Assembly: GCA_043752205.1 (NCBI GenBank) | Contig: JAYUYX010000141.1 | Coordinates: 14,304 to 78,303 of the forward strand | Origin: Chitinophagaceae bacterium | GTDB lineage: Bacteria; Bacteroidota; Bacteroidia; Chitinophagales; Chitinophagaceae | Direction of reading: 5' to 3' | DNA length: 64,000 nt | Part shown: piece after piece, positions 11,981 through 30,421 of the stretch | Layout of the letters: every line of letters starts with the position of its first letter | Numbering within the stretch: the stretch's first letter is position 1 | Notes under the pieces: model-generated | What the model was told of the DNA's origin: nothing | Seen by the model: only the letters and a program-made list of their open reading frames with translations | Database searches by the model: none | Translations under genes and position numbers: made by a program

Positions 11981-12007
11981 CATTACTAATAGCTAAAACC
12001 CGTAATT

Positions 12008-13567
12008 ATGAGTGTAAAAAATATGTTTAAAGAACTGAAAAGTGATTTGCCGGCGAGTATTGTCGTTTTTTTTGTGGCGGTTCCCTTGTGTCTTGGTATC
12101 GCCCTGGCATCAGGAGCTCCTCTGTTTGCCGGTATTATTGCCGGAATAGTTGGCGGTATTGTAGTGGGTATTGCCAGCGGTTCCCCTCTAGGAGTTAGTG
12201 GTCCGGCGGCCGGTTTAGCTGTAATTGTATTAACCTCTATTGCATCTCTTGGAGGATCGTGGGAATCTTTTCTGCTTGCTGTTGTTATAGCAGGTATAAT
12301 TCAGTTGTCTTTGGGTTTTGCCAAAGCTGGTTTTATTGCCTATTTCTTTCCTTCCTCAGTTATCAAAGGAATGCTTACGGGTATAGGGCTGCTGATTATT
12401 TTAAAACAGATACCTCATGCTTTAGGCTGGGATAAAGATGCTGTTGGAGATGATGCTTTCATACAGGCAGATGGCCAAAATACATTTTCTGAAATCTTCA
12501 GAGCATTTGAATTTATAACCCCCGGCGCAGTACTTATTGCCGCCATTTCATTAGCCATTCTTATATTTTGGGATAAGGTTTTAACAAAAAAGCACAAAAT
12601 TTTCGGAATGCTAAACGGGCCACTTGTAGTTGTCGTTTTAGGAATTGTAATGTTTAATTTATATAAAAACGGAACACTGAATTTTAGTTTAGCCGATGAC
12701 CAGGTTGTAAGAATTCCTGTTCCTGAAAATATAGCGGGTTTTTTTAGTCAGTTTACTTTTCCTGATTTTTCTGCAATCACAAATTTTGAAGTTTGGAAAA
12801 TTGCAATCGTTTTGGCAATTGTAGCTAGTTTAGAAACATTATTGTGTGTGGAAGCCACCGATAAAATGGATCCTTATAAAAGAATTACACCTACCAATAG
12901 AGAACTTAAAGCACAAGGTTTAGGTAATGTCCTTTCTGGTTTAATTGGTGGGTTGCCGGTTACGCAAGTTATTGTTCGCAGTACAGCTAATATAACATTT
13001 GGTGGAAAAACAAAAATGTCTGCCATTCTGCACGGCTTTTTCCTTTTATTAAGTGCCCTTACCATTGCAAGCCTTTTAAACATGATACCATTGGCAAGTT
13101 TAGCCGCTATTTTATTTATCGTAGGCTACAAATTAGCCAAACCTGCTCTTTTTATAAACATGTACAAACTAGGATGGGAGCAGTTTATTCCTTTTACAGC
13201 AACGGTTGTCGGCATATTGTTAACCGATCTTTTAATAGGTATTACAATAGGTATCTGTTTTGGAATTTTTTACACGTTACGTCATAGTTACCGCAACTCC
13301 CACCACATGAAAAATGTAATTACCTCAGGAGATGGGCATGAAATACACCATATAGAGCTGGCTCAGGAAGTTTCATTTTTTAATAAAGCGAGTGTGCTGC
13401 GGGCTTTAGAAGCAATTCCAGAAAATTCGAAAGTGTTTATTGATTTTTCCAAGTCAAAATCAATTGCCCATGATGTACTTGAATTATTAAAAGATTTTGA
13501 GACTAATGTCAAAACCAAGAACATCACCGTTGAGAAAATAAAATTTATTGAGCCGGCTTATTTATAA
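12008..13567 (+). CDS. SulP family inorganic anion (bicarbonate/sulfate) transporter with C-terminal STAS domain
   Basis: 519 aa, polytopic. Conserved SulP blocks LPLCLGIALASGAP, GVSGPAAGLA and NRELKAQGLGN are present, plus a C-terminal STAS-like domain. Confidence 0.9.
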   Translation: MSVKNMFKELKSDLPASIVVFFVAVPLCLGIALASGAPLFAGIIAGIVGGIVVGIASGSPLGVSGPAAGLAVIVLTSIASLGGSWESFLLAVVIAGIIQLSLGFAKAGFIAYFFPSSVIKGMLTGIGLLIILKQIPHALGWDKDAVGDDAFIQADGQNTFSEIFRAFEFITPGAVLIAAISLAILIFWDKVLTKKHKIFGMLNGPLVVVVLGIVMFNLYKNGTLNFSLADDQVVRIPVPENIAGFFSQFTFPDFSAITNFEVWKIAIVLAIVASLETLLCVEATDKMDPYKRITPTNRELKAQGLGNVLSGLIGGLPVTQVIVRSTANITFGGKTKMSAILHGFFLLLSALTIASLLNMIPLASLAAILFIVGYKLAKPALFINMYKLGWEQFIPFTATVVGILLTDLLIGITIGICFGIFYTLRHSYRNSHHMKNVITSGDGHEIHHIELAQEVSFFNKASVLRALEAIPENSKVFIDFSKSKSIAHDVLELLKDFETNVKTKNITVEKIKFIEPAYL

Positions 13568-13588
13568 TCAATTTAAAACTAAAATTAG

Positions 13589-14239
13589 ATGAAAACATTA
13601 ACTAAAGAAATGCAAAATGCCATCACCCCTGCAATGGCAATGGATATTTTAAAGAAAGGGAATGAAAGGTTTATGAATAACCTTAAAGCAAATCGTAACC
13701 TGTTGCAACAGGCAAACGAAACATCAGACGGGCAACATCCGTTTGCTGTTATTTTAAGTTGTATTGATTCCCGTACTTCGGCAGAGTTGATTTTTGACCA
13801 GGGATTGGGCGATGTGTTTAGTGTTCGTATTGCCGGCAATATCATCAATGAAGATATTTTGGGCAGCATGGAATTTGGCTGCAAAGTTGCCGGTGCAAAA
13901 ATTATAGTAGTGTTGGGACACACCAAATGCGGCGCAGTGAGAGGGGCATGCGACCATGTAGAAATGGGCAACCTCACAGCATTATTAAGCAAGATACAGC
14001 CTGCAGTTTATGATGAAAATACTATAAAAGAGAATCGCAATTCAGAGAACAGTGAATTTGTAGAAAAAGTAGCGATCATCAATGTAAAAAGAACGGTACA
14101 TGCCATTATGGAACGCAGCACCATTTTAAAGGAAATGATACAATCGGGTGCCATTGGTATTGTGGGAGGTACACATGATATTACAACAGGTGAGGTAAAT
14201 TTTCATGATGATACTTTAATTATTAACGATCCTAAGTAA
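13589..14239 (+). CDS. beta-class carbonic anhydrase
   Basis: Zinc-ligand motifs SCIDSR and GHTKCGAV; 216 aa. It starts 21 nt after sulP. Confidence 0.9.
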   Translation: MKTLTKEMQNAITPAMAMDILKKGNERFMNNLKANRNLLQQANETSDGQHPFAVILSCIDSRTSAELIFDQGLGDVFSVRIAGNIINEDILGSMEFGCKVAGAKIIVVLGHTKCGAVRGACDHVEMGNLTALLSKIQPAVYDENTIKENRNSENSEFVEKVAIINVKRTVHAIMERSTILKEMIQSGAIGIVGGTHDITTGEVNFHDDTLIINDPK

Positions 14240-14245
14240 AACCAC

Positions 14246-14283
14246 TTCAGGCAGATGTAAAAATCTGCCTGAATATTTTTTTC
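14246..14283 (+). terminator. rho-independent terminator
   Basis: Perfect 11-bp stem TTCAGGCAGAT/ATCTGCCTGAA with loop GTAAAA, followed by TATTTTTTT. Confidence 0.8.
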
Positions 14284-14414
14284 AATCGCCATGTTGTATT
14301 ACAAATCCCTTATCCTCTTCATAAAACCCATATGAAACAATACATACTATGATTGTCATCAGTAAATAGAACACAAAAAACAATTTAATTGTACTTTAAT
14401 TAATACGATTTAAC

Positions 14415-15257
14415 ATGAAAAAAATAATTGTACCCACGGACTTCTCGCTTAACGCTGACAAAGCACTCCATTTTGCCGTTCAAATTGCCAAACAGGCAAA
14501 GGCAGAAATAATTTTAGTACATGCATGTGATCTGATTGACAGTCCTTTTAAAGACAATCAGACTTTATATAAAGAGCATAACCAGACAATAACTGACAAG
14601 TCAAATAAGAACCTGTCATTATTAAAACGGGGTATTGAGGCCACTGAAAAGCTTTCTATAAATATAAAGCTGTATAAAGGCACGGTAACTGATACAATTC
14701 TACAGGCTTCTGAAGAGCATCTTGCCAACCTTGTTATAATGGGTACATTGGGCAAGGCAGGACTACATGAAAAAATATTTGGCAGCAAAACTGCACAAAT
14801 AATTGGGGAAACGAATGTACCACTAATTGCTGTTCCACTTTTGTACGAGTGGAAGGTTCCCGAAAAAATTCTGCTGGTAATAAATTATTTTGACGAGCAA
14901 TCCGATAATATTAACCCCGTCTTTGAACTGGCAGGATTGTATAATGCCACAGTACATATTGCCATATTTACTGACGTAGATTCGGCCCAAGCTTTTGACT
15001 ATCTAAAGGATAAAAGAAGCATTACTGCTTATGAAGAAAAACTCAAAACCCGGTATAAACATGTCAGTATAAAGTCTGTTCATTTAGACGGCAGCAGGTT
15101 TCAGGAAACTATTGAAGAATACATACATGAACAATCTATTGATATGGTGGCAATGATAAACCACAAACGAACATTCCTGGAAAGCATTTTTAATGGCAGT
15201 ATGACAAAGAAAATGTCATACCATACACGAATACCATTGTTAACCATTCCTGCATAA
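14415..15257 (+). CDS. universal stress protein (tandem Usp domains)
   Basis: 280 aa. The N-terminus KKIIVPTDFS is typical, as is the second-domain ending with a G-x2-G-x9-G-like block and C-terminal PLLTIP. Confidence 0.8.
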   Translation: MKKIIVPTDFSLNADKALHFAVQIAKQAKAEIILVHACDLIDSPFKDNQTLYKEHNQTITDKSNKNLSLLKRGIEATEKLSINIKLYKGTVTDTILQASEEHLANLVIMGTLGKAGLHEKIFGSKTAQIIGETNVPLIAVPLLYEWKVPEKILLVINYFDEQSDNINPVFELAGLYNATVHIAIFTDVDSAQAFDYLKDKRSITAYEEKLKTRYKHVSIKSVHLDGSRFQETIEEYIHEQSIDMVAMINHKRTFLESIFNGSMTKKMSYHTRIPLLTIPA

Positions 15258-20135: not shown

Positions 20136-20155
20136 TTATTAAAAAAATTAAAACC

Positions 20156-20461: not shown

Positions 20462-20533
20462 AAGCAGAAAAAAATATAGTAATAATTTACAGAATTATAT
20501 AGACATCCTTACTATCATTAAAAAATCCTGATT

Positions 20534-21292
20534 ATGGAATATGAAATTATTGTTTCACTTTTAACGCTGATAGCTTTGGAAGTTATCCTGGGAATAGACA
20601 ACGTTATTTTCATATCCATCTTAGCTAATAAATTGCCGGCAGATCAGCAAAAAAAAGCAAGACTTTATGGATTAATACTGGCTATGGTTTTGCGGTTGGT
20701 TTTATTGGCAATGATAGCCTGGATAATGAAATTAAACAATGACCTATTTACTCTTTTTAATCAAGGTATATCAGTAAAAGATTTGATACTGATATCAGGC
20801 GGATTATTTCTATTGTATAAAAGTTCTGCAGAAATATATCATAAAATGGAAGGAGAGCAGGGTAACCAAACCAAAAATATTAAAGCGGCCACATTTACCC
20901 AGGTGATTTTGCAAATTTTAATAATGGACCTAGTTTTTTCAATTGATTCTATTATTACAGCAATAGGAATGGTAAAAGAAGTATGGATTATGTATGTGGC
21001 TATTATTGTTACTGTTTTAATCATGTTGGTAGCGGCTGAACCAATCAGCAGGTTTGTAAATAAACATCCGTCATTCAAAATGCTTGCACTTTCCTTCTTA
21101 TTGCTGATCGGGTTTGCCCTTGTAAGTGAGGGTTTTGGTATAGAAATTCCAAAAGGGTACATCTATTTTTCAATGGCTTTTTCAATGCTGGTAAGTATTT
21201 TCCAAATGCGGATGCACAGAAATAATAAACCCGTAACAACACATGAACATTATAAAGAAGGAGAAGATAAATTGCCTAAAAATGTATTGTAA
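20534..21292 (+). CDS. TerC family integral membrane protein
   Basis: 252 aa, multi-TM. The motifs LEVILGIDNVIFIS and DLVFSIDSIITAIGM are the duplicated TerC signature. Confidence 0.85.
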   Translation: MEYEIIVSLLTLIALEVILGIDNVIFISILANKLPADQQKKARLYGLILAMVLRLVLLAMIAWIMKLNNDLFTLFNQGISVKDLILISGGLFLLYKSSAEIYHKMEGEQGNQTKNIKAATFTQVILQILIMDLVFSIDSIITAIGMVKEVWIMYVAIIVTVLIMLVAAEPISRFVNKHPSFKMLALSFLLLIGFALVSEGFGIEIPKGYIYFSMAFSMLVSIFQMRMHRNNKPVTTHEHYKEGEDKLPKNVL

Positions 21293-21310
21293 TAATAGGG
21301 GGGCTAAAAA

Positions 21311-22018
21311 ATGAAAATATTAAAAAAATATTCATTTACAATACTGTTCTCGTTCATTAGTAATCTCTGCTTTTCTCAGAATTTTGACTTAGGAAGTTGG
21401 AACATTTTAAATGTTAAATATAAAATAAATGAAAAATGGAGTGTTTTTGGTGAAGTACAAATACGTTCGTTAAAATTCTATACAAACTTTCATTATCACG
21501 AATATAAGGGAGGGATATCTTTTAAAGCCTTCAAAAATGTTACCCTTACAATTGGTGCCGGTGATTATGATACCTATAAAGAAGGCGGCAACTTTTTAAG
21601 GCCTAAAAATAATGATGAATTCCGATTGTGGCCACAGATCAATATTATACAACCGCTTGGAGCTTTTAACATGGAACATCGGTACAGAGCAGAATTCCGA
21701 TTTACCAGCAATGGTTTTAAAAATAGATTTAGGTATAGATTAGGAGTTACATATCCTTTTGGAAAAGATAAATCAGGTTTCAAGCCTTATCAACTCAGTT
21801 TAAACAATGAAATATTTTTTACAGGCAAAGAACCCTATTTTGAAAGAAACAGGATATTAGTTTCAGTTGGGTATAGAATAACAAAGCAAACTACTTTTCA
21901 ATTGGGATATTTACACCAATTTGATTACAAAATAAATGATGAAACCGGTCGTGATTTTTTACAAATGGGATTGTATGCAGAGTTATTTAATAAATTGAAA
22001 AGTAATAAATCCCGGTGA
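21311..22018 (+). CDS. DUF2490-like outer-membrane beta-barrel protein
   Basis: Signal peptide and an aromatic-rich alternating strand pattern; 235 aa. The assignment is from recollection of the family's size and pattern only. Confidence 0.5.
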   Translation: MKILKKYSFTILFSFISNLCFSQNFDLGSWNILNVKYKINEKWSVFGEVQIRSLKFYTNFHYHEYKGGISFKAFKNVTLTIGAGDYDTYKEGGNFLRPKNNDEFRLWPQINIIQPLGAFNMEHRYRAEFRFTSNGFKNRFRYRLGVTYPFGKDKSGFKPYQLSLNNEIFFTGKEPYFERNRILVSVGYRITKQTTFQLGYLHQFDYKINDETGRDFLQMGLYAELFNKLKSNKSR

Positions 22019-22106
22019 TTATACTTCCAGGATTACGTTTACTAAATGAATATTATTTAAAGCTGAATTTTAAGATTTACTTTCCTTCATAAAACATCCT
22101 TACTAT

Positions 22107-23984
22107 TTATGACGACCTGAACGCCACCGGGTGGTTTAATTTTTTATGAAGCCCCAAAAATATGCGGCAATAAATACGAATTGCCGCCAGCTCAATAAAA
22201 ATAAAACAAAGCGCCATCATTATAATTAACGCTACCTGGTTACTGTGCACATAGGTAAACAATACATCCATTCCAATAAATGCGGTTGTTACCGGGAAGC
22301 CTAAAATACCTGTTGCAGCAATTAAAAATAACAAAGAAGTTGTTTTTTGCTCATATACATAACCATGGTATTTATTCAGCGTAATATCGTTATCAATTGC
22401 CCTGGTCTTTTGCAGACAAAAATAACCCAGGCAAAAAGCTGCCAGAATTCCACTTGCATAAAAAATGATCTCAATTGAATTTACATGTTCAGCATTTATA
22501 CAGATTGCTGAAAGAATAAAAGTATGTGCTACTAAGATATACACCCATGCTGTTAAAGCCGATTTTCGGTGAGCAAAAGCAAAAAGTATCAATGCCAGTG
22601 CAATGCTTATTAAAACAATTGATATGCTGTGGTTATTTACAACGACAAATTCGGGCTTGTATACCGAAGCAACGAAAGCCCCTAGCCCCACAACGGCAAA
22701 AAATATGACAGCAGCTGTTGACTGTAAGAATTGTAATTGCATGCCAATCCATTTAAAAGGGCTCCATAAATATTTGAACATCGTTGTATCAAGGTTAAAC
22801 TCTTTAATGCCCAGTACATACAATGCGGTTCTTATTTTTGATACCGGTTTATCCTGCGGGGGGTGGTAATGAAAATACTGATGATGTACCAGGTAATTTA
22901 ATACAGATGGAGAAACCAATAATTGATATGTTCTTAAAAAAGCATTGCCTGCAAAATGTACCAATGCTAATACGTGAAATCCTAATGCTACTTCAATAAA
23001 TATTATGCCTATCTGCGCTGCAGATGAATAGGCTATCTGAGTTTTTACAGTTGGTTGTACCCTGGCGATCAATGTAGCAACAATACCTGTTAATGCACCA
23101 ACGATTATAATTGCAATTTTGATCCAGAGCATATCCTGCCAGAAAGGCCAGGTGCGTAATAATAAGAATACGCCTATATGTACGCTTAATGAACCGTAAA
23201 ATATAGCCGATGATGAAGTGGGGCCTTCCATAGCACGGGGCAGCCAGCTTGTAAATGGAAACTGTGCTGATTTTATCATGGCGGCCAATACGATCATGAT
23301 AACAATAAAGAGGGCCATATTACCGCTACCTGATTGTACAGCTGTTTGCTTCGCTTCTTCCAGTTGCGAAAAATTTATATTCTGGTTTGTAAGATGATGC
23401 ATCATCCACATGGCCAGTATCAGCGCTACATCGCTAATCCTGTAATAGGATAATGTTTTGAAAGCATTTTTTACAGGCAAATACCTGTTCCTGTAAAATG
23501 CGATCAGCAGGAATGAGGATATACCAATCAATTCCCAACCTACAAACATGGTTTCAAAGTTGCCGGAAAAAATGATCAGATTATAGCCAAGCGCAAAGAA
23601 CAGGATGGTATTAAAGAAGCGCTTATAACCTTCATCACGGTGCATATAATAACGGCTGAACTTTGATACCAGGAAAAATAATACAGCGCCCACAATACTG
23701 TACACGGCTGTTATATGATCATAATAGAACTGAATTGCGAAAACAAAATGATCGGTTTGGTAAAGCGTAACGAATTGCTCATTAACAGGGATGCGTCCAT
23801 TTACAAACCACAACACCGCATATGCTACTGCAGCAATAATGTAAAACGCTTTTGTAACCTGAACAATTAATATGATCGGTTTTTCCTGTTTATTCTGCCA
23901 CAGCAACGTGGCAAAAAACGCAATCAGCGGTATAATAACAAACAGGCTGATTGATTGGTTAAGTATGTTATCGAATTGGTTCAT
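22107..23984 (-). CDS. dabB: NuoL/MrpA-like proton-conducting membrane subunit (PF00361), DabB candidate
   Basis: 625 aa, about 14+ TM. The conserved ND5/NuoL block FVGWELIGISSFLLIAFY and AMIKSAQFPFTSWLPRAMEGPTSSSA are present. No other complex I genes are nearby, and it lies directly downstream of a DUF2309 gene. Confidence 0.8.
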   Translation of the reverse strand: MNQFDNILNQSISLFVIIPLIAFFATLLWQNKQEKPIILIVQVTKAFYIIAAVAYAVLWFVNGRIPVNEQFVTLYQTDHFVFAIQFYYDHITAVYSIVGAVLFFLVSKFSRYYMHRDEGYKRFFNTILFFALGYNLIIFSGNFETMFVGWELIGISSFLLIAFYRNRYLPVKNAFKTLSYYRISDVALILAMWMMHHLTNQNINFSQLEEAKQTAVQSGSGNMALFIVIMIVLAAMIKSAQFPFTSWLPRAMEGPTSSSAIFYGSLSVHIGVFLLLRTWPFWQDMLWIKIAIIIVGALTGIVATLIARVQPTVKTQIAYSSAAQIGIIFIEVALGFHVLALVHFAGNAFLRTYQLLVSPSVLNYLVHHQYFHYHPPQDKPVSKIRTALYVLGIKEFNLDTTMFKYLWSPFKWIGMQLQFLQSTAAVIFFAVVGLGAFVASVYKPEFVVVNNHSISIVLISIALALILFAFAHRKSALTAWVYILVAHTFILSAICINAEHVNSIEIIFYASGILAAFCLGYFCLQKTRAIDNDITLNKYHGYVYEQKTTSLLFLIAATGILGFPVTTAFIGMDVLFTYVHSNQVALIIMMALCFIFIELAAIRIYCRIFLGLHKKLNHPVAFRSS

Positions 23985-24069
23985 TGATATTTTTTGTTTC
24001 TGTTATTTATTTCTGTTACATAATACATATCCTGGCAAAACCAAGTTTCCCAACGGGGGACGCAAGGCT

Positions 24070-26598
24070 TTAATCCAATAAATACACCGGCAGATTTTCT
24101 TCGGTGGCATGTACAATATGGTTGGTTTCCATTTCACTGGCACCTTCAATAAATTCTTCCATATTGTGAATAGTTTTTATAGCATCTGCACCGGTAATAG
24201 GATCGTACTTGCTAAATGCCCCATCTTTAAAATAATAGAATTGCTTTTCGCCCGGGTGCAATGCAATGATATGTACCCATTCATTTTTATACCATTCAAA
24301 TACTTCTGGCGAAGATTGAATAGCCTGCAAAACGATCTCCGGTTTTTGTTCAACGATAACCAACAATCTTACGGGATCATGTACCTCGATCATCTGCCAG
24401 GGCAAACCTGGACGCAGATCACCATCGCTACTGTTGGCAACACCAAACAAGCCAAGCACATTGTGCGGAAGTTTGGTGCCTGCTCCCATTTTAATATTAT
24501 CAACTCTGCTGAAATAATACTCCAGGTTTATACCGCCACAAACTAAACCAATAGGCCTCATTACTGCAGATAGTATAGATCCATCCGCATCGGTTGTATG
24601 ATCATAACTGTTTAAAAAAGCCCGGCGGTCAAGGAATAACCCTTTGGTGATATGCCTGCGGCCGATGATGGCTAAAGTGTTGGTACCATGCCCTAACTCA
24701 GGTCTGGGTTCAAATAAAGAAACGGAACGGTTATGAATGGCCTTACGCACCTGTTCTAATTCCTGCCTGGTATTGATAGATGAGAATCTCCTGCTTCTTT
24801 CTTTTGCATTTAAGTTAAGAGCGGTTTCAAAATTCTGTTTATTCAATATATTTTGCGTTGCATTTTCTCCAGTTAAAATATCTTCATCATAGTAGCCAAT
24901 TACATCAGCAGCTGTATCATGCATGCTGCCAACGAACTGGGTTTTATCGGTAAGTTCAATTCCTTTTGATTGAAGTATCTCTCTTACTTTTTTATGATTT
25001 AAGATATATGCCTGTACCCTTGCATTGGTAGCCCCTGGCCTTCCGCTGCAGGCGCCGCAATCGTGTGCACCATGGTGTGGGTTGTTTGCACTGCTGCTGC
25101 CATGCGCAACAATATAAACTATCCGGGCAAAATCCCTGATCAATCCAATACCTCTTAAAAAACCTTCGGCTCTTGTAACCATCTCATCTAAAGTGTATCC
25201 TACCTGCAACCCATTTTCTACATCTTCAGTATTCTTATTTTCTATGGTTAAAGTTGAGCGGCCATCCATATGCCCGTATGCATTTGAAATGGCAGGGCTC
25301 ATTTTTGGTTTAAACAGGTTTTGAATTGTTTTGGCAAATGCCCAGAATCCAAAGCTCATGCTTAATGCAAAGCCGGTTAAAAATCCATGTGTATGTTTAC
25401 TGTAAAGCGGTTCATCTTTTTTAGACAATGCAGCATCAAATTCTTTAATGAGGTATTTTGGCGTAACCGGGGCGGGGCATAACTTATCATAGAATTTACT
25501 TCCCTGTTGCTGGAAGTAGAATTCAACACCGAAGAAACCAGGTGCACCAAAGGTTTCGCAATTTTTATCTACAGCTTCAATATGCCTGCGGATCGAATCC
25601 TCCCTTTCGTCAATACAGAATATGGCCTGGAAAGTTTTTTCCATTGCAGGCGTTTTTATATCAACGATCAGCATGCCTTTTAGTACCGAATCATAATAAC
25701 TCCATTCAAAAGCATCCTGCCATAATTCTATAACTGTTGCAAATTCCGTTTTAGCAATATCTGCAAGCAGGTCAAGCGGGGGTTCTTTTACCTGCTCAGA
25801 TAATGGCTGCCATTTATTTCCCAGCTCATGGTTCAACATGTCAAGCTCAAACAATAATTCAAATTCAATTAGCTCCTGCAGGGTTATCATTTTCCTGTCG
25901 AGCAGCGTTTGCGGGTTATCTTCAACAGCAGAAATAAATCCACTCCACCCATGATGTGCAAACTGCTGGTCAAATAAATACTGCTCAAAATATTCTTCTT
26001 TACCAACAATCGTTTTTAATAATTCAGTAATGGAGTAATTGCCAGATACAAATTTTTGTTTGATAGCTTTTGTTTTGAAAAAGCTAACACCACTATTTTT
26101 CTCAAGCATTTTCATGCTCTCAATAAAATTTCGGTTGGCAACAGGGAAGCTGTCCACAGCAATTCCCTGGTCTAAAAAAGCACAAAGGATACGGAACAAT
26201 ATAGGATGTACTTTATTATCCAGGTCTATGCTATAAACTTCTTTCCAGTGTTTTCGCAACTGGCCAATGCGTGGGCGGGTAATGGTATCATAGTTTCCTG
26301 TCAGCAGTTTTTGTTTCCATTCTTCAATAGCCCCTTTGCCTTTTTTATTGGTTATCACCATTTCAAGAATGTCTTTCCTTATCCTGCCGCTTTTATACAT
26401 TTCCCTGTATTCGGGCAATTGCAAATGCACCTGTAAACCAAATATACCAGAGGCTTTAAAAATGGCATCATAGAATTTCATGTGCTGAAAAGCATGCAGG
26501 GTATTATGATGGATAAAATCCTTTAGCGCCTGCTGTGATGGCAGGTGATGCTTTAATTCATGTATAACATGTGCTTCGTTAAAAGAATGATTACTCAT
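24070..26598 (-). CDS. dabA: DUF2309 (PF10070) protein, DabA candidate
   Basis: About 842 aa. Motifs FCIDERED and AHGSSSANNPHHGAHDCGACSG correspond to the Cys/Asp...His/Cys zinc-site pattern described for DabA. I prefer the ATG at 26598 (MSNHSF...) because the track start at 26631 is a TTG inside a hairpin. Confidence 0.85.
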   Translation of the reverse strand: MSNHSFNEAHVIHELKHHLPSQQALKDFIHHNTLHAFQHMKFYDAIFKASGIFGLQVHLQLPEYREMYKSGRIRKDILEMVITNKKGKGAIEEWKQKLLTGNYDTITRPRIGQLRKHWKEVYSIDLDNKVHPILFRILCAFLDQGIAVDSFPVANRNFIESMKMLEKNSGVSFFKTKAIKQKFVSGNYSITELLKTIVGKEEYFEQYLFDQQFAHHGWSGFISAVEDNPQTLLDRKMITLQELIEFELLFELDMLNHELGNKWQPLSEQVKEPPLDLLADIAKTEFATVIELWQDAFEWSYYDSVLKGMLIVDIKTPAMEKTFQAIFCIDEREDSIRRHIEAVDKNCETFGAPGFFGVEFYFQQQGSKFYDKLCPAPVTPKYLIKEFDAALSKKDEPLYSKHTHGFLTGFALSMSFGFWAFAKTIQNLFKPKMSPAISNAYGHMDGRSTLTIENKNTEDVENGLQVGYTLDEMVTRAEGFLRGIGLIRDFARIVYIVAHGSSSANNPHHGAHDCGACSGRPGATNARVQAYILNHKKVREILQSKGIELTDKTQFVGSMHDTAADVIGYYDEDILTGENATQNILNKQNFETALNLNAKERSRRFSSINTRQELEQVRKAIHNRSVSLFEPRPELGHGTNTLAIIGRRHITKGLFLDRRAFLNSYDHTTDADGSILSAVMRPIGLVCGGINLEYYFSRVDNIKMGAGTKLPHNVLGLFGVANSSDGDLRPGLPWQMIEVHDPVRLLVIVEQKPEIVLQAIQSSPEVFEWYKNEWVHIIALHPGEKQFYYFKDGAFSKYDPITGADAIKTIHNMEEFIEGASEMETNHIVHATEENLPVYLLD

Positions 26599-26612
26599 AT
26601 AAAATAAAAATT

Positions 26613-26634
26613 GGGTTGGAGGTTTCTCCAACCC
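26613..26634 (-). terminator. terminator-like hairpin between the beta-CA stop and dabA start
   Basis: Perfect 9-bp stem GGGTTGGAG/CTCCAACCC with a 4-nt loop. On the minus strand it is followed by AATTTTTATTTTAT. It begins 11 nt after the CA stop and ends 15 nt before the dabA ATG. Confidence 0.5.
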
Positions 26635-26644
26635 TGTTAAAAAA

Positions 26645-27334
26645 TTAATGCCTTAATTCTGCCAAACTGAATTTGGGATTTTTTTCGTCCTTTATATAGG
26701 ACACTTCCTTATAAAACTCCACCTTACCGGTATCTATATTATGCATAGCCCCAACAATCCCTATTTCGCCCTTGTCCAGCATTTCTTCCAGAATAAAACT
26801 ACGCTCAATAATATTTTTCACTCCCCGTTTCACATTTAATGAAGATACATTTTCAACAAATTTTCCGTTTTTTGAATTTCTTTTATCTACGGCCGTTGTT
26901 TCAGATTCAGCATAAACAGCGGGTTGCAATTTGGATAATAGCTCTGTAAGATTTCCCATTTCCACATGGTCGCAGGCCCCTTTTACTGCTCCACATTTGG
27001 TGTGTCCAAGAACGACAATAAGCTTTGATCCTGCTACCTTACAGGCAAACTCCATACTGCCAAGTATGTCGGTATTCACAATATTACCGGCAATTCGGAT
27101 AGAAAAAACATCGCCCAATCCCTGGTCGAAAATTAACTCAGCGGAAGTGCGGCTGTCAATACAGCTAAGTATGGTGGCAAATGGCCATTGCCCGTCACGG
27201 GTGGCATTCACCTGGGCTAATAAATCTCTCTGTGCTTTCAGGTTTTTAACAAAGCGGCCATTACCTTCCTGTAAAATTTCCAATGCCATCCTGGGTGTTA
27301 AACTAGATTGTGTTTCTTTTGTATGAACTCTCAT
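26645..27334 (-). CDS. beta-class carbonic anhydrase (paralogue of 13589-14239)
   Basis: SCIDSR and GHTKCGAV motifs. The catalytic core is near-identical to the first copy at protein level. Confidence 0.9.
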   Translation of the reverse strand: MRVHTKETQSSLTPRMALEILQEGNGRFVKNLKAQRDLLAQVNATRDGQWPFATILSCIDSRTSAELIFDQGLGDVFSIRIAGNIVNTDILGSMEFACKVAGSKLIVVLGHTKCGAVKGACDHVEMGNLTELLSKLQPAVYAESETTAVDKRNSKNGKFVENVSSLNVKRGVKNIIERSFILEEMLDKGEIGIVGAMHNIDTGKVEFYKEVSYIKDEKNPKFSLAELRH

Positions 27335-27372
27335 AATTTTTTATAGTATTTTTTTTGATAAACTAATATTGT

Positions 27373-28992
27373 TTAATGTGCAGATTGTACACTTTCTGTG
27401 TTTTCAATTTTATAGACTTCTTTAAAACCTATCAATTGCAGCTGTATATTCTTTAATGGAACTTTAATATCCTTAAACTCTTTGATCAGCCCTAGCACGT
27501 CATAATCAATATATCGTGTATTGGAAGCATCAATTATTACCGAGGTGTTTTTTGGGATATGATCCAATGTCTCCCGGATAGCTGCTTTATTCAAAAATGA
27601 TACTTCTTCCGAAAGTTTGATAGTAACAGTATCTCCTTCTCTATGTTTTTCTGAATGAAAAAAGTAAGAGTTCTTAAGATTTCCGTGTAAAAGAGCACCA
27701 ATAGCCGCTACGATTCCCGCCAGTACTCCTATAACAAGTCCTTTACCACTTAATGCCGGTATTATTGCAAATAGGTCAACAGCAATGATCACCAACACGG
27801 TGACTATAAAAGGTATGAATTGGTATTTTCCGGCCTTCCAAAATCCTTTGAATACAGAAGGGTTGGCCAATTTCCAACCTGTTAGGATCAGAATGGCGGC
27901 AAGCGCTCCTTTGGGCATCATATTCAATATCCCGGGAATTAATATCACGGTTAGCAGCAATAACATCGCATGGAAAATTGCAGAGAGCTTAGTTTTCGCT
28001 CCTGCATTTACGTTAGCACTGCTTCTTACTATCACACTTGTTATTGGCAAACCTCCAATTAAACCCGATAAAGTATTGCCTGCACCCTGTGCCATTAACT
28101 CCCTGTTAGTATTGGTTACTCTCCTTTCCGGATCCAGGTTATCAATAGCTTCTATACTCAACAAGCTTTCTAACGACGCTATTATGGCAATGATAAAGCC
28201 ATACATAATAACAGTGCCGTTTGTAAATCCACTAAAATCGGGGAGTGTAAAAAATCCAAAAAACTCACTGGCGTTTTGTGCTACAGGTAATTTTATCAGG
28301 TGAGACTCTTCTATAATTTGTAAATTACTACTTGATGCAATCCAGATCTGATTGAGCACAATAGCCAACACTACCGCTACCAATGCGCTGGGGATATAAG
28401 GTAATTTTTTCTTTAAAGGAGATCTATCCCATAATACCATTATTAGTATAGAAAGAAGGGAAATGATAACAACCCCTACTTCAATTTTTTGTAAGGGGAT
28501 TAACAGTTCGTGCCAGTCGCCACCGGTAAAGGGCATTACATCAATCAGATGGCCAGACTCATCTTTATCTCTTCCGAATATATGCGGAATTTGCTTGGCA
28601 ATAATTAATATACCAATGCTGGTAAGCAAACCTTTTATAACGCTTGATGGAATATAATTGGCAATTCCGCCCAGCTTTAATGCACCTAATGCTATTTGTA
28701 TTAACCCTGCCAGCACAACCGCACATAAAAAGAGGCCATAATTCTCTAACCCTCCCAGGGCTATAATGGCTCCAGATACCAGTGTAGCCAATCCTGCAGC
28801 CGGACCGCTAACGCTCAATGGTGAATTACTTAACGAGCCTACAACCAGGCCGCCAATGATACCGGCAATTAAACCGCTAAAAGGCGTGGCTCCACTAGCT
28901 ACAGCAATAGCTATACATAATGGTAAGGCAACCAGAAAAACAACCAGGCCCGCAGGTAGGTCATTTTTTAAATAATTTGTATTGATTTTCAT
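27373..28992 (-). CDS. SulP family anion transporter with STAS domain (paralogue of 12008-13567)
   Basis: 539 aa with the same conserved SulP blocks (LPLCIAIAVASGA, SVSGPAAGLA, NRELMAQGAGN) and a C-terminal STAS domain. Confidence 0.9.
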   Translation of the reverse strand: MKINTNYLKNDLPAGLVVFLVALPLCIAIAVASGATPFSGLIAGIIGGLVVGSLSNSPLSVSGPAAGLATLVSGAIIALGGLENYGLFLCAVVLAGLIQIALGALKLGGIANYIPSSVIKGLLTSIGILIIAKQIPHIFGRDKDESGHLIDVMPFTGGDWHELLIPLQKIEVGVVIISLLSILIMVLWDRSPLKKKLPYIPSALVAVVLAIVLNQIWIASSSNLQIIEESHLIKLPVAQNASEFFGFFTLPDFSGFTNGTVIMYGFIIAIIASLESLLSIEAIDNLDPERRVTNTNRELMAQGAGNTLSGLIGGLPITSVIVRSSANVNAGAKTKLSAIFHAMLLLLTVILIPGILNMMPKGALAAILILTGWKLANPSVFKGFWKAGKYQFIPFIVTVLVIIAVDLFAIIPALSGKGLVIGVLAGIVAAIGALLHGNLKNSYFFHSEKHREGDTVTIKLSEEVSFLNKAAIRETLDHIPKNTSVIIDASNTRYIDYDVLGLIKEFKDIKVPLKNIQLQLIGFKEVYKIENTESVQSAH

Positions 28993-29139
28993 CTTGTATT
29001 TAGTTTTAGCTATATGTTTTGCTTTTCTGTACCGAAAAGTTTTAAAGGTGCCTTAAACAAGACCATTAAGAAATGGTAACATTGCTTTGTTGTAGAGTGT
29101 GGCTTTAGTTAGCCACTAACTAGAAAGGGGTGTCCAGGA

Positions 29140-29511
29140 TCAGCACCTGTTCGGGGGAGGAACAAGCAGTTCTCCATGATAAGCGATATAAGTGTCTACA
29201 TTATCAAGTTTATGATACTGCATGGCTAAAGAAAAGAAAAAGTCTGTTTTGTGATTGTCGTGGAGAAATTCTTCTGAAACAGAATTGCTACCAGGTGTTT
29301 TTTCTTCAGTATTAGCACCAGGTGTTTTAGTGGTTTCTTCTTCGCTACCGGCAAGTGGGGCGGAAGTTTTTTCCATCTTATGCTTTTTGGCCACTTCCTG
29401 CTGGCTTGCTATCAGAAAAGGGGTGCTCACCGTAAGCCACATCAATGCCAGTATCATTACAACGGCAGATACCAGTTGGTAAACACTATATATTTTACGG
29501 CTTTTCCTCAT
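29140..29511 (-). CDS. hypothetical single-pass membrane protein
   Basis: 123 aa. One N-terminal TM (YQLVSAVVMILALMWLTVSTPFLIA), an acidic Thr/Glu-rich linker with internal repeat TKTPGAN/EKTPGSN, and a His-rich C-terminus ending HGELLVPPP. It is co-directional with and upstream of sulP. I recognise no family. Confidence 0.45.
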   Translation of the reverse strand: MRKSRKIYSVYQLVSAVVMILALMWLTVSTPFLIASQQEVAKKHKMEKTSAPLAGSEEETTKTPGANTEEKTPGSNSVSEEFLHDNHKTDFFFSLAMQYHKLDNVDTYIAYHGELLVPPPNRC

Positions 29512-29626
29512 AAAGAGGCTGCAAGATACTGCATAACATTTTTTAAACCAACATTTAAGGGAGCTTCAACATGGAAGTAATAAAAATATGACAGAGATAT
29601 AACAGTAGTTTCTAATTATTGTTGGT

Positions 29627-30391
29627 CTAGCTACGGCTTTTAAATTTTTCAATGGCGTTTTTTGTGAAATCGCTAAGAACCAGTTTACCACTGATGGCAG
29701 CTCTTTCTTTTAATAATTCATCCCAGTGCTCCGTGCCTTTCCAGAATATTTTTTTCATTTCGGCCATTGCCAGCGGGTTTGAATGTGCTAATGTATTTGC
29801 AAGCCTGTCAACAGCTTCGTCCATGTTTTCAATGCTTTCATGTACTTCTGCAAACAAACCTTTTCTTTTTGCCCAATCTGTACTTCGCCAACCTGCAGCA
29901 TCAATTGCAAGGGCGCTGAAAGGGCCAACACCTATTTTTCTTTCTATTGCCGGACCAACCACAAAGGGGCCAATACCTACTGCCAATTCACTCAATTTTA
30001 TTTCGGCCTTATTTGTTGCAATAGCATAATCAACTGCTGCTGCTAAACCCACTCCGCCGCCAACACATTTTCCCTGTATCCTGCCGATTATAAATTTGGG
30101 GCATTTTCGCATGGCATTGATCACATTAGCAAAACCACTAAAAAACTGCAACCCCTCTTTTTCATTTTTAATAGAAACCAGTTCATCAAAACTTGCACCT
30201 GAGCAAAATGTTTTATCGCCCCCGCTTTTTAAAATGATCACCCTGGTATCATCATGTGTGCCAGCAAAATGAATTTCACGGGCAAGCTGCTCTAAAATTT
30301 TCCCCGGCAAACTGTTACTTTGCGGATGAAAAAATTCAATAGTGTTTATGCCGTGTTCTATATGGCTTGTTACATATGCTTCTGTGTTCAT
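29627..30391 (-). CDS. enoyl-CoA hydratase/isomerase (crotonase) family protein
   Basis: 254 aa. Oxyanion-hole blocks FCSGASFDE and GKCVGGGVGLAAAVD are present. Confidence 0.85.
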   Translation of the reverse strand: MNTEAYVTSHIEHGINTIEFFHPQSNSLPGKILEQLAREIHFAGTHDDTRVIILKSGGDKTFCSGASFDELVSIKNEKEGLQFFSGFANVINAMRKCPKFIIGRIQGKCVGGGVGLAAAVDYAIATNKAEIKLSELAVGIGPFVVGPAIERKIGVGPFSALAIDAAGWRSTDWAKRKGLFAEVHESIENMDEAVDRLANTLAHSNPLAMAEMKKIFWKGTEHWDELLKERAAISGKLVLSDFTKNAIEKFKSRS

Positions 30392-30421
30392 AAAAATGTT
30401 TTCTCTAATAAAAGTATAATC

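What the first reader, a model, noticed from the sequence alone, without database searches (positions are those of the whole stretch)
22107..28992. sulP - beta-CA - dabA - dabB: three inorganic-carbon modules in one co-directional block of an apparently heterotrophic Bacteroidota genome
**Seen in the sequence.**
- Four minus-strand ORFs follow each other with gaps of 38, 46 and 85 nt.
- They are a SulP/STAS transporter (539 aa), a beta-carbonic anhydrase (SCIDSR, GHTKCGAV), a DUF2309 protein and a NuoL/MrpA-like PF00361 subunit.
- The DUF2309 protein carries FCIDERED and HGSS..HHGAHDCGACSG.
- No other complex I genes are nearby.

**Established knowledge.**
- DUF2309 (DabA) plus a PF00361 subunit (DabB) form an energy-coupled CO2-to-bicarbonate pump, first characterised in Halothiobacillus.
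- SulP-CA pairs are an independent bicarbonate module.

**Inference.**
- The 64 kb contains no RuBisCO or carboxysome genes.
- A soluble CA next to a vectorial CO2-hydrating pump is counter-intuitive, because cytosolic CA dissipates accumulated bicarbonate in CCM organisms.
- The unit may therefore work differently, for example in CO2/bicarbonate scavenging for carboxylases or pH homeostasis at low CO2 or alkaline pH, possibly with a SulP-STAS/CA metabolon.
- To my knowledge this four-gene architecture has not been characterised as a unit.
Basis: partly seen in the sequence, partly recalled or inferred. Interest (0 to 1): 0.7.

Follow-up and report, generated by a model that had tools for sequence, protein, structure and literature searches.

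The report
Bicarbonate transporter, carbonic anhydrase, CO2 pump operon
A soil/freshwater Bacteroidota bacterium keeps a bicarbonate-type transporter, a carbonic anhydrase and an energy-driven CO2-to-bicarbonate pump side by side; the grouping recurs in many relatives, in some of which the transporter and pump are fused into one protein, so the parts probably work together, but nobody has tested how.

Summary
Four minus-strand genes lie at 22107-28992: sulP, a beta-carbonic anhydrase (CA), dabA and dabB. The gaps (38, 46, 85 nt) and all quoted motifs are as stated. The 64 kb holds no RuBisCO, carboxysome or other complex I genes among the ORFs scanned.

- A conserved 123-aa membrane protein gene with a conserved promoter-like block probably starts the unit.
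- A conserved terminator-like hairpin sits between CA and dabA.
- A second sulP-CA-usp set lies 8 kb away.

The linkage is not chance. Of 53 species-level genomes with enough flank, 38 link SulP to dabAB and 25 link both SulP and a beta-CA. Gene order varies, and three different CA clades fill the CA slot. About 40 protein clusters are SulP::DabA fusions.

The most likely function is an inorganic-carbon supply module for a heterotroph, with dabAB as a lower-expressed add-on to a sulP-CA core. Transport direction is untested. A bicarbonate-efflux role (proton retention or anion exchange) remains open.

There are precedents: a 2017 note of SulP next to ybcC-nuoL operons, and the B. subtilis ndhF-mpsB-canC operon. 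This is therefore a new variant of a known kind, of moderate interest.

The parts
29521..29551 (-). Promoter-like block upstream of the 123-aa gene. It reads TTGG, 19 nt, TATCTTGC, then 9 nt to the ATG, which resembles the Bacteroidota -33/-7 type.
   Evidence: It is the only conserved non-coding block in an alignment of 13 related loci. Assignment as a promoter is by inference. An exact TAnnTTTG is not present in the window copy.
29140..29511 (-). hyp123, a conserved small single-pass membrane protein and the probable first gene of the unit. It has an N-terminal TM helix, an acidic linker and a conserved C-terminus (SEEYLHDxH...YxAFHGELLVPPPN).
   Evidence: It has no Pfam or NCBIfam match. 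It lies directly upstream of the SulP/CA/Dab genes in 13 loci. In the reciprocal look-ups L084-L087 it does the same, although L085/L086 lack dabAB. It has 282 homologous clusters; none of the 120 listed has a Pfam domain, and nearly all that carry a name are called 'hypothetical'.
27373..28992 (-). SulP/SLC26-family anion transporter with a weak C-terminal STAS domain. Its presumed substrate is bicarbonate.
   Evidence: PF00916 scores 216 bits; STAS scores 21.0 bits, below the cut-off. It falls below the BicA and DauA equivalog cut-offs. Its best solved relative is the BicA TM domain 6KI1, E = 3e-25.
26645..27334 (-). Cytoplasmic beta-class carbonic anhydrase. The ORF leaves no room for a signal peptide.
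   Evidence: PF00484 scores 136 bits. NCBIfam PRK15219 scores 252 bits against a cut-off of 221. The C-D-R-H-C catalytic set is present. Its closest solved structure is M. tuberculosis Rv3588c, 1YM3/2A5V, E = 5e-28.
26603..26634 (-). Terminator-like hairpin (GGGTTGGAG-AAAC-CTCCAACCC) followed by a T-rich run. It ends 4 nt before the dabA ATG.
   Evidence: The scan found it and the sequence confirms it. Folding gives -17 kcal/mol with z = -4.3. It is conserved in L001, L003 and L087, with a G.U change in L001 and a both-sided change in L003. L002 has an unrelated stem at the same place. L085 has a strong terminator hairpin right after CA even though dabAB is absent.
24070..26598 (-). dabA (PF10070/DUF2309/YbcC/MpsB family), the catalytic subunit of a vectorial CO2 hydratase.
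   Evidence: PF10070 scores 683 bits. PDB 9rd0_A (DabA2) matches at E = 2e-58, with the Zn ligands and Asp-Arg dyad conserved.
22107..23984 (-). dabB, the NuoL/MrpA-like PF00361 membrane subunit.
   Evidence: It matches PF00361 and PF00662. It falls below all NuoL/MrpA/NdhF equivalog cut-offs. It matches the N-terminal ~370 residues of NuoL/ND5 and DabB2. It follows dabA in 79 of 81 loci; the two exceptions are contigs that end just after dabA.
21311..22018 (+). DUF2490 protein with a signal peptide and an outer-membrane-barrel-like sequence. It is a recurrent member of the neighbourhood. Here it is inverted, so it is convergent with dabB.
   Evidence: PF10677 scores 142 bits; the sequence is. 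It is the co-directional gene directly after dabB in L001, L087 and L089, and lies next to SulP or dabA in L028, L036, L038 and L076.
12008..15257 (+). A second, paralogous module: SulP2 (12008-13567), beta-CA2 (13589-14239) and a tandem-Usp protein (14415-15257). It is not part of the operon but shares the theme.
   Evidence: Pfam matches are. SulP and SulP2 are 47% identical; CA and CA2 are 67% identical.

Best explanation
**What it is.** This is a conserved inorganic-carbon (DIC) handling locus of a Ferruginibacter-like, presumably heterotrophic Chitinophagaceae bacterium.

**Likely layout (inferred).** It forms one transcription unit: promoter-like block, hyp123, sulP, beta-CA, leaky terminator hairpin, dabA, dabB.

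**Likely roles.**
- DabAB uses the proton-motive force to hydrate CO2 irreversibly to HCO3- in the cytoplasm. This is shown for H. neapolitanus DAB2 and inferred here from conserved catalytic residues.
- SulP moves HCO3- across the inner membrane (inferred).
- The soluble beta-CA equilibrates CO2 and HCO3- (inferred from intact catalytic residues).

**Purpose.** Together they secure HCO3-/CO2 for biosynthetic and anaplerotic carboxylases when CO2 is scarce. This matches the redundant CA plus MpsAB systems of B. subtilis.

**Architecture.** The core is hyp123-sulP-CA. dabAB is a downstream add-on reached only by read-through of the hairpin, so the costly pump is probably made at a lower level than the cheap route. 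SulP and DabA probably associate physically, because in many relatives they are one polypeptide.
For: **Family assignments and catalytic residues**

**Mechanism of the paradigm**
- PMC13144422 and bioRxiv 10.1101/476713.
- The latter already noted DabA in RuBisCO-less heterotrophs and proposed that it supplies bicarbonate to biotin carboxylases.

**Linkage statistics**
- Among the 53 loci with enough flank, SulP is linked in 38, CA in 26 and both in 25.
- Both are linked in 13 of 13 loci where DabA is at least 70% identical to the window's, and in 11 of 16 at 57-70% identity.

**Selection for the combination rather than inheritance of one arrangement**
- Orders seen include SulP-CA-DabAB, CA-SulP-DabAB, SulP-DUF2490-CA-DabAB, SulP::DabA-DabB-CA and SulP::DabA-DabB-DUF2490-CA.
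- Three beta-CA clades fill the CA slot (at least 61%, about 50% and about 22% identity to the window CA). Almost all linked copies keep C-D-R-H-C.

**Fusions**
- About 40 clusters are SulP::DabA fusions. One is in the complete genome of the isolate Sorangium sp. So ce590.

**Modularity**
- L085/L086 have hyp-SulP-CA-terminator-DUF2490 with no dabAB, between flanks like those of L001.

**Operon signals**
- A conserved promoter-like block lies only upstream of hyp123.
- The conserved hairpin has a both-sided change in one stem pair in L003.

**Precedent**
- B. subtilis ndhF-mpsB-canC is one operon. CanB, CanC or MpsAB alone each support growth in air.
Against: - No expression or transport data exist for any Bacteroidota member.
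- A cytosolic CA should dissipate any HCO3- accumulated above equilibrium. Fan et al. 2021 (PMC8552792) argue this and saw no benefit from co-expression.
- A unidirectional hydratase fused to a transporter makes most kinetic sense if the transporter removes the product, that is, exports HCO3-.
- The SulP is not a BicA orthologue: 126 bits against a cut-off of 880.
- The DabAB here differ from DAB2 at three positions discussed for coupling: DabA K423 for E444, DabA H637 for L658, and DabB E151 for I151. Gating could therefore differ.
- Heterotrophy is inferred from taxonomy and 64 kb only.
- The promoter and terminator assignments are sequence-based only.
Confidence: 0.55

Rival explanations
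1. **Bicarbonate efflux machine.** CA and the PMF-driven DabAB make HCO3- plus H+ from (mostly metabolic) CO2, and SulP carries the HCO3- out. The purpose would be one of two things. It could retain protons for cytoplasmic pH homeostasis at alkaline external pH. Or the outward HCO3- gradient could drive uptake of another anion (sulfate, chloride and so on) by SLC26-type exchange.
For: - DabA is a one-way hydratase. Fusing it to SulP gives product channelling only if SulP takes HCO3- away.
- The same logic applies to the known SulP::CA fusions.
- Many characterised SLC26 relatives are anion/HCO3- exchangers (established knowledge). Chloride/anion exchangers are among the solved relatives.
- Neighbours and fusion partners are stress- or pH-flavoured. 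TerC/Alx-family genes sit beside or inside the cluster (L016), and Usp sits next to SulP2 and is fused to SulP elsewhere.
- Under this model CA and pump are parallel sources rather than antagonists, so the CA paradox disappears.
Against: - Every experimentally studied DAB/MpsAB system supports growth at low CO2, that is, DIC supply.
- The best solved relative of this SulP is the importer BicA.
- There is no direct evidence for direction.
- The alkaline-habitat link was not examined here.
Confidence: 0.22
2. **Two independent modules that merely sit together.** On this reading sulP-CA is one complete unit ending at its own terminator, and dabAB is a separately acquired cassette. There is no functional coupling beyond a shared general theme.
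For: - A terminator-like hairpin lies between CA and dabA.
- sulP-CA pairs exist on their own, in the same window and in L012, L038 and L075.
- L085/L086 lack dabAB between flanks like those of L001.
- dabAB occurs alone in CPR and other genomes.
Against: - The hairpin ends 4 nt before the dabA ATG, so there is no room for a promoter between them.
- Linkage persists through at least five gene orders and three CA clades.
- SulP::DabA fusions are frequent.
- The CA can also sit after dabB.
Confidence: 0.13
3. **Cation pump rather than carbon pump.** DabAB here would act mainly as a cation (Na+/H+) translocating or membrane-potential system, as first proposed for S. aureus Mps. SulP and CA would serve charge or pH balance.
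For: - DabB keeps both NuoL-type ion pairs, including the TM5 Glu that DabB2 has lost.
- DabA has Lys/Arg where DabA2 has the coupling residue Glu444.
- NCBI names some fusions 'Na-translocating system protein MpsB'.
Against: - The Zn site and Asp-Arg dyad are invariant in all 81 DabA sequences, which argues that CO2/HCO3- chemistry is the selected function.
- MpsAB itself was re-interpreted as a DIC supply system.
Confidence: 0.05

Closest known systems
DAB2 (DabA2/DabB2) of Halothiobacillus neapolitanus, a PMF-coupled vectorial carbonic anhydrase (PDB 9RD0; PMC13144422; Desmarais et al. 2019)
   Same: - It is a two-gene PF10070 plus PF00361 system.
- The Cys-His-Cys Zn site and Asp-Arg dyad are conserved.
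- The N-terminal ~370 residues of DabB align.
   Different: - The host is heterotrophic, with no carboxysome or RuBisCO nearby.
- Sequence matches to the solved chains are modest: E = 2e-58 for DabA over only its C-terminal 55%, and E = 9e-28 for DabB.
- DabA has His637 where DabA2 has Leu658, a residue 'strictly conserved' among DabA2 homologues.
- DabA has Lys423 where DabA2 has Glu444.
- DabB has Glu151 where DabB2 has Ile151.
- Here the genes are linked to SulP, a beta-CA and a small membrane protein.
Bacillus subtilis ndhF-mpsB(ybcC)-canC(ybcF) operon and S. aureus mpsAB(C)
   Same: - The host is a heterotroph.
- A beta-CA is co-transcribed with a DabB/DabA-type complex.
- The systems are redundant DIC suppliers needed for growth in air.
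- A small third membrane protein (MpsC, Hneap_0908) accompanies some systems. This is comparable in idea to hyp123, but no homology was shown.
   Different: - Gene order is nuoL-like first, then ybcC, then CA.
- No SulP is present.
- The phylum is different.
- In the Bacillus operon the CA is the last gene, whereas here it precedes the pump and is followed by a terminator-like hairpin.
COGNAT 'clade C' ybcC-then-nuoL operons with COG0659 (SulP) and COG1008 (NuoM) neighbours (Klimchuk et al. 2017, PMC5700660)
   Same: - The gene order is the same (ybcC/dabA upstream of the nuoL-like gene), and SulP is a frequent neighbour.
- The Sorangium locus L088 matches that description exactly.
   Different: - That paper predates the discovery of DAB function and proposed an unknown exergonic enzyme.
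- It does not mention carbonic anhydrase.
- The passages read say nothing of SulP::DabA fusions or the small membrane protein.
SulP-CA gene pairs and SulP::CA fusion proteins (Felce & Saier 2004); cyanobacterial BicA
   Same: - A SulP transporter is paired with a beta-CA.
- SulP::CA fusions appear in the same homology search.
- BicA is the best solved relative of the TM domain.
   Different: - The SulP here is not a BicA orthologue.
- The function of SulP-CA pairs in heterotrophs has not been shown experimentally.
- Here the pair is extended by an energised CO2 hydratase.
Cyanobacterial CO2 uptake NDH-1(3/4)-CupA/B working alongside BicA/SbtA
   Same: - It follows the same logic: a bicarbonate transporter plus a vectorial CO2-hydrating complex built on a NuoL/NdhF-type subunit.
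   Different: - The hydratase subunit is unrelated (CupA/B against DabA).
- That system is part of a carboxysome CCM, in which cytosolic CA is harmful. Here a cytosolic CA is part of the conserved set.

Membership tests
DabA (PF10070 / DUF2309 / YbcC / MpsB) | Full-length match to PF10070 above the gathering score | tested here: met
   683 bits against a cut-off of 25, covering model positions 1-747.
DabA (PF10070 / DUF2309 / YbcC / MpsB) | Beta-CA-like Zn site (Cys351, His524, Cys539) and Asp353-Arg355 dyad of DabA2 | tested here: met
   Aligned residues are C328, D330, R332, H499 and C514 in 842-aa numbering. They are invariant in 81 relatives.
DabA (PF10070 / DUF2309 / YbcC / MpsB) | Encoded next to a PF00361 (DabB) partner, with no other complex I genes | tested here: met
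   dabB lies 85 nt downstream. The pair is kept in 79 of 81 loci; the two exceptions are contigs that end just after dabA. No other complex I genes are in the 64 kb.
DabA2 subtype (H. neapolitanus DAB2-like) | [quoted passage not shown] | tested here: not met
   The ungapped alignment RPEWGLAGN against RPELGHGTN puts His637 at this position. It is His in 81 of 81 relatives. The window protein therefore belongs to a different DabA subclade.
DabA2 subtype (H. neapolitanus DAB2-like) | Glu444 at the tip of the membrane-inserted finger-like motif, essential in DAB2 | tested here: inconclusive
   The aligned residue is Lys423, anchored by the conserved Pro 8 residues downstream. Across 81 relatives it is K 48, R 24, Q 5, E 3 and S 1. 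Alignment in this loop region has low confidence.
DabB (DAB-type PF00361 subunit) | PF00361 antiporter-like core that is not a NuoL/MrpA/NdhF orthologue | tested here: met
   PF00361 scores 143 bits and PF00662 31 bits. All NCBIfam NuoL/MrpA/NdhF models score far below their cut-offs. Only residues ~12-373 align to NuoL/ND5/DabB2.
DabB (DAB-type PF00361 subunit) | DabB2-specific loss of the TM5 Glu (Ile151), with Lys235/Asp185 retained | tested here: not met
   The window has Glu151 (VGWELIG), Arg182, Asp185 and Lys238. Glu151, Asp185 and Lys238 are conserved in all 79 relatives, and Arg182 in 78 of 79. The arrangement is NuoL-like rather than DabB2-like. The match to DabB2 Ile151 is inferred from shared numbering and the NuoL/ND5 alignment; the DabB2 alignment itself was not displayed.
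DAB/DAC function | Energy-coupled DIC accumulation; rescue of CA-free E. coli in air | not testable with these tools
   This needs an experiment.
Beta-carbonic anhydrase (PF00484) | Pfam match plus the Cys-Asp-Arg-His-Cys catalytic set | tested here: met
   PF00484 scores 136 bits. NCBIfam PRK15219 scores 252 bits against 221. The SCIDSR and GHTKCG motifs are present.
SulP/SLC26 transporter | PF00916 transmembrane core plus a C-terminal STAS domain | tested here: met
   PF00916 scores 216 bits. STAS scores 21.0 bits, just under the 22.6 cut-off, so the STAS part is only weakly supported.
BicA-type bicarbonate transporter | Equivalog-level match to NF050096 (BicA) | tested here: not met
   126 bits against a cut-off of 880. 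DauA scores 173 against 614. BicA's TM domain is nevertheless the best solved relative. The substrate is unknown.
Carboxysome-based CO2-concentrating mechanism | RuBisCO and carboxysome shell/CA genes linked to the DIC transporters | tested here: not met
   None are found in the 64 kb. The rest of the genome was not available.

The most novel reading that the evidence does not exclude
SulP, DabA and DabB (perhaps with hyp123) form one membrane supercomplex. In it a one-way, PMF-driven CO2 hydratase hands its bicarbonate directly to an SLC26-type transporter. That would make a bacterial 'bicarbonate transport metabolon' working in the efflux or exchange direction, for proton retention at high pH or for HCO3--driven anion uptake. 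This would give DAB complexes a physiological role outside carbon concentration. It would also explain why a cytosolic CA is selected for, not against, in the same operon.
Probability: 0.2. Interest if true: 0.8.

Novelty: new variant of a known kind. Interest (0 to 1): 0.55.

Why it matters
DAB/MpsAB complexes are found in many heterotrophs and pathogens, but their role there is poorly understood. The common view is that a bicarbonate pump and a cytosolic carbonic anhydrase should not coexist.

This locus and its relatives cut against that view. In a large part of the Bacteroidota the pump, a SulP transporter and a beta-CA are kept together. The grouping survives gene shuffling and CA replacement, and SulP and DabA are often one protein.

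That has two consequences:
- It gives a concrete, testable handle on two open questions: what SulP-CA pairs do (open since 2004), and how DABs are used outside autotrophy.
- It points to natural SulP::DabA-DabB assemblies as targets for structural work and for engineering bicarbonate uptake.

It is not a new kind of system, and none of the functional reading is demonstrated.

Tried and rejected
**Searches that gave nothing**
- Exact look-ups of the window's CA and DabA in the contig index found nothing on record.
- A sigma-70 promoter scan found fewer sites than in shuffles and is not suited to Bacteroidota.
- The exact Bacteroidota -7 motif TAnnTTTG is absent from the spacers upstream of sulP and hyp123. 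The promoter-like block was found only by aligning relatives.
- Rfam found nothing, at gathering threshold over 64 kb and at E of at most 1 over 20000-30500. The hairpin is therefore not a known riboswitch or leader.

**Features checked and dropped**
- The hyp123-sulP spacer has a palindrome (TAGTTAG-TGG-CTAACTA, about 29106-29122). It is not conserved in relatives.
- A terminator-like hairpin at 22164-22187 lies inside the dabB coding region and was treated as chance.

**Literature**
- Searches for SulP::DabA fusions or a described sulP-CA-dabAB unit found none in the held library. The library is incomplete.

**Readings rejected**
- That the CA is periplasmic. The maximal ORF has no room for a signal peptide.
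- That dabB is a stray complex I gene.
- That SulP::DabA is an assembly artefact. About 40 clusters exist, including one in a complete isolate genome.

**Not attempted**
- Structure prediction, because sequence matches to the solved DAB2 already place the catalytic residues.
- Whether this beta-CA has the allosteric bicarbonate site of type II enzymes.

Full report
**1.

ORF listing and translation give four consecutive minus-strand genes:
- sulP, 27373-28992, 539 aa
- a beta-carbonic anhydrase, 26645-27334, 229 aa
- dabA, 24070-26598, 842 aa from the ATG. The mechanical ORF extends to a TTG at 26631, but an identical 842-aa protein (P0001) is on record from NCBI.
- dabB, 22107-23984, 625 aa

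The gaps are 38, 46 and 85 nt, as reported.

Pfam confirms the families:
- PF00916, 216 bits. The STAS domain scores only 21.0 bits against a 22.6 cut-off.
- PF00484, 136 bits.
- PF10070, 683 bits over the full length.
- PF00361 plus PF00662.

NCBIfam places the CA in the PRK15219 subfamily, above its cut-off. It leaves DabB far below every NuoL/MrpA/NdhF model, and SulP far below both the BicA and DauA equivalogs. All quoted motifs are present.

Pfam scans of 50 further ORFs across the window found no RuBisCO, carboxysome or further complex I genes. Two ORFs of at least 110 aa outside any larger ORF (58247-58687, 61301-61819) and all ORFs under 110 aa were not scanned.

The closest homologues are from Ferruginibacter and Chitinophagaceae MAGs. 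'Bacteroidota, presumably heterotrophic' is therefore reasonable, although only 64 kb was seen.

**2. DabA and DabB compared with the solved paradigm**

The window DabA matches the cryo-EM chain of H. neapolitanus DabA2 (9RD0_A) at E = 2e-58. The Zn ligands C351/H524/C539 and the D353-R355 dyad described in PMC13144422 align to C328, H499, C514, D330 and R332. These are invariant in a 30-sequence diverse alignment and in 81 related loci.

Three positions that the structural paper discusses for gating or coupling differ:
[quoted passage not shown] Here it is His637, and it is His in 81 of 81 relatives.
- **Glu444 of the membrane 'finger'.** It aligns to Lys423. Across relatives this position is K or R in 72 of 81. 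The alignment confidence here is moderate.
- **DabB2 Ile151.** Here it is Glu151, and the R182, D185 and K238 partners are also kept. This is the NuoL-like state. The match to DabB2 position 151 is inferred from shared numbering and the NuoL/ND5 alignment.

The proteins are clearly DAB-family. They belong to a subclade other than DAB2, the one with dabA upstream of dabB.

**3. The unit is larger and more structured than reported**

*A fifth gene.* A 123-aa ORF (29140-29511) lies upstream on the same strand and has no Pfam or NCBIfam match.
- It is a conserved single-pass membrane protein with a conserved His-rich C-terminus.
- It lies directly upstream of the SulP/CA/Dab genes in 13 loci found through DabA. 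The same holds in reciprocal look-ups starting from its own homologues, although L085/L086 lack dabAB.
- It has 282 homologous clusters. None of the 120 listed has a Pfam domain, and nearly all that carry a name are called 'hypothetical'.

*A promoter-like block.* The only conserved non-coding block in these loci lies just upstream of this gene. It looks like a Bacteroidota -33/-7 promoter: TTGG, 19 nt, TAtyTTTGCA, then about 9 nt to the ATG. It sits at window 29521-29551.

*A terminator-like hairpin.* Between CA and dabA there is a perfect 9-bp GC-rich hairpin followed by a T-run, at 26603-26634. It ends 4 nt before the dabA ATG.
- It folds at -17 kcal/mol with z = -4.3.
- It is conserved in L001, L003 and L087. 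L001 has one G.U change, and L003 has a change on both sides of one stem pair.
- L002 has an unrelated stem at the same place.

*Loci without dabAB.* In L085/L086 the flanks resemble those of L001 but dabAB is absent. The CA gene is again followed immediately by a strong terminator hairpin and then DUF2490.

My reading (inference) is as follows. hyp123-sulP-CA is the core transcript. The genes behind the hairpin are expressed by read-through at a lower level. dabAB is a module that has been inserted or lost at that point.

**4. The linkage is far beyond chance and is under selection**

A scan of one genome per GTDB species returned the 80 closest DabA loci out of more than 589, at 52-90% identity and mostly Bacteroidota. 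Synteny by tblastn gave the following counts.

| DabA identity to the window | Loci with enough flank | SulP linked | Beta-CA linked | Both linked |
|---|---|---|---|---|
| All | 53 | 38 | 26 | 25 |
| At least 70% | 13 | 13 | 13 | 13 |
| 57-70% | 16 | 14 | 12 | 11 |
| 50-57% | 24 | 11 | 1 | 1 |

Gene order varies:
- hyp-SulP-CA-DabA-DabB (the window type)
- hyp-CA-SulP-DabA-DabB
- SulP with a different CA, then DabA-DabB
- SulP-DUF2490-CA-DabA-DabB (Flavobacterium laiguense, a cultured strain)
- SulP-CA-TerC-DabA-DabB
- SulP-DabA-DabB
- DabA-DabB-SulP

The CA slot is filled by three distinct beta-CA clades, at least 61%, about 50% and about 22% identical to the window CA. Almost all linked copies keep the C-D-R-H-C set.

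*Fusions.* A representative search revealed a 1390-aa SulP::DabA fusion.
- Its locus reads hyp125, SulP::DabA, DabB, CA.
- A homology search with it found about 40 clusters of such fusions, 1185-1602 aa long. They come from Saprospiraceae, Lewinella, other Bacteroidota, and the complete genome of Sorangium sp. So ce590.
- The junction is a continuous STAS, ~35-aa linker, DabA reading frame.
- The same search shows SulP fused to beta-CA (known), Usp, PII and (as called ORFs) DUF2490.

Every one of these partner domains except PII is a separate gene next to SulP or SulP2 in this window.

**5. What else is in the window**

- A second paralogous set lies 8 kb away: SulP2, CA2 and a tandem Usp at 12008-15257, with a divergent TetR. 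SulP2 is 47% and CA2 is 67% identical to the first pair.
- DUF2490 (21311-22018) has a signal peptide and looks like an outer-membrane barrel. In relatives it is the co-directional gene right after dabB. Here it is inverted.
- A TerC-family gene follows.

**6. How it most likely works**

*Established or directly supported:*
- DAB complexes hydrate CO2 to HCO3- in the cytoplasm, driven by the PMF.
- The catalytic residues are intact here.
- The CA is cytoplasmic and has an intact active site.

*Inferred:*
- SulP carries HCO3-.
- The set supplies HCO3-/CO2 to the carboxylases of a heterotroph when CO2 is limiting.
- sulP-CA is the default route, and dabAB is a read-through, lower-level, energised supplement.

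*On the CA paradox.* The B. subtilis operon ndhF-mpsB-canC shows that a beta-CA co-transcribed with a DAB-type complex exists in a heterotroph. There, CanB, CanC or MpsAB alone each suffice in air. It is not unprecedented.

*The main rival.* The main rival is the efflux direction. A one-way hydratase fused to a transporter makes most sense if the transporter removes the product. That would give proton retention at alkaline pH, or HCO3--driven anion exchange. CA and pump would then be parallel sources rather than antagonists. I cannot decide the direction with sequence data.

*Probabilities:*
- DIC supply: 0.55
- Efflux or exchange: 0.22
- Uncoupled neighbours: 0.13
- Cation pump: 0.05

**7. 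Novelty**

- SulP next to ybcC-then-nuoL operons was noted in 2017, before DAB function was known. That paper does not mention CA, and the passages read say nothing of fusions.
- DabA in RuBisCO-less heterotrophs was noted in 2018-19.
- A CA in an mpsAB operon was studied in 2026.
- I found no paper in the held library describing the sulP-CA-dabAB set, the SulP::DabA fusions or the hyp123 family. The library is incomplete.

This is a new variant of a known kind. The gene identities are ordinary. The conserved, shuffled and fused association is the interesting part.

**8. Verdict**

- Interest is 0.55.

Noticed in passing
window 11170-15257: A second sulP-beta-CA pair sits 8 kb from the first: SulP2 12008-13567 and CA2 13589-14239. 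SulP2 is 47% and CA2 is 67% identical to the first pair. A tandem universal-stress protein (14415-15257) follows, and a divergent TetR regulator (11170-11904) precedes it. SulP::Usp fusions exist in other organisms.
   Followed up: partly
window 29140-29511 (-): An unannotated family of ~123-aa single-pass membrane proteins is always the first gene of the SulP/CA(/Dab) cluster in Chitinophagaceae-like genomes. Its conserved C-terminus reads SEEYLHDxH...YxAFHGELLVPPPN. It has 282 homologous clusters; none of the 120 listed has a Pfam domain, and nearly all that carry a name are called hypothetical. Its function is unknown.
   Followed up: partly
window 21311-22018 (+); L001 14491-15234; L087 15295-16026; L089 13194-13895: DUF2490 has a signal peptide and an outer-membrane-barrel-like sequence. 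In relatives it is the co-directional gene right after dabB, or it sits between SulP and CA/dabA. In the window it is inverted. ORFs called as SulP::DUF2490 fusions exist (P0311-P0315), which is topologically odd for an outer-membrane barrel.
   Followed up: partly
L085 and L086, 8001-11616: Two metagenome contigs have hyp125-SulP-CA, a strong terminator hairpin, then DUF2490. There is no dabAB, yet the flanks (CitMHS, divergent CA, TerC, OEP, HlyD, ABC) are like those of L001, which has dabAB. So dabAB behaves as an insertable or deletable cassette.
   Followed up: partly
L087 10823-13386: L087 is a relative with the same upstream synteny as the window (PaaZ-ECH-hyp123-SulP-CA). Its dabA matches in two reading frames that join near residue 273. 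This is either a frameshifted pseudogene or a sequencing error.
   Followed up: no
L042, L045, L048, L049, L056: dabA-dabB pairs about 55% identical to the Bacteroidota ones occur, without SulP or CA, in candidate-phyla-radiation genomes. One is the complete 1.45-Mb Saccharibacteria chromosome CP025011. This suggests horizontal transfer into very small genomes.
   Followed up: no
L001 6271-6906 (-); also L004, L006, L010, L015, L018, L019, L031, L072, L084, L085: Many relatives carry a third beta-CA, about 25% identical to the window CA, divergently transcribed just upstream of hyp123. In the window this position is occupied by an enoyl-CoA hydratase and PaaZ (29627-32584).
   Followed up: no
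window 20534-21292 (+); L016 7289-7975: A TerC/YkoY-family membrane protein gene neighbours the cluster in several loci and sits inside it in L016 (SulP-CA-TerC-DabA-DabB). No yybP-ykoY or other riboswitch was detected in the window.
   Followed up: partly
window 56094-57344 (+): This is a chromate-transporter (Chr) family protein. Chr-family members have been reported to carry bicarbonate in some autotrophs. Here it is 27 kb away, and nothing links it to the cluster.
   Followed up: no
window 24070-26598 and 22107-23984; alignment A1: The DabA/DabB subclade with dabA upstream of dabB has an invariant His where DabA2 has Leu658. It has Lys/Arg where DabA2 has Glu444. It retains the TM5 Glu that DabB2 has replaced by Ile151. 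The coupling mechanism proposed for DAB2 may not transfer unchanged.
   Followed up: partly
L088 7001-14737 (Sorangium sp. So ce590, CP150346.1): The myxobacterial locus reads SulP::DabA (1602 aa), DabB (474 aa), then a second PF00361 protein (505 aa, NuoM-like), with no CA. It matches the 2017 COGNAT 'clade C' description and comes from a cultured isolate.
   Followed up: no
L037 6545 onward: One locus, labelled Pirellula, has a 758-aa ORF just upstream of a normal CA and dabAB. It matches SulP and a CA-like region. In that region two of the Zn-ligand positions are not Cys (G-D-R-H-S), so it may be a degenerate SulP::CA fusion.
   Followed up: no
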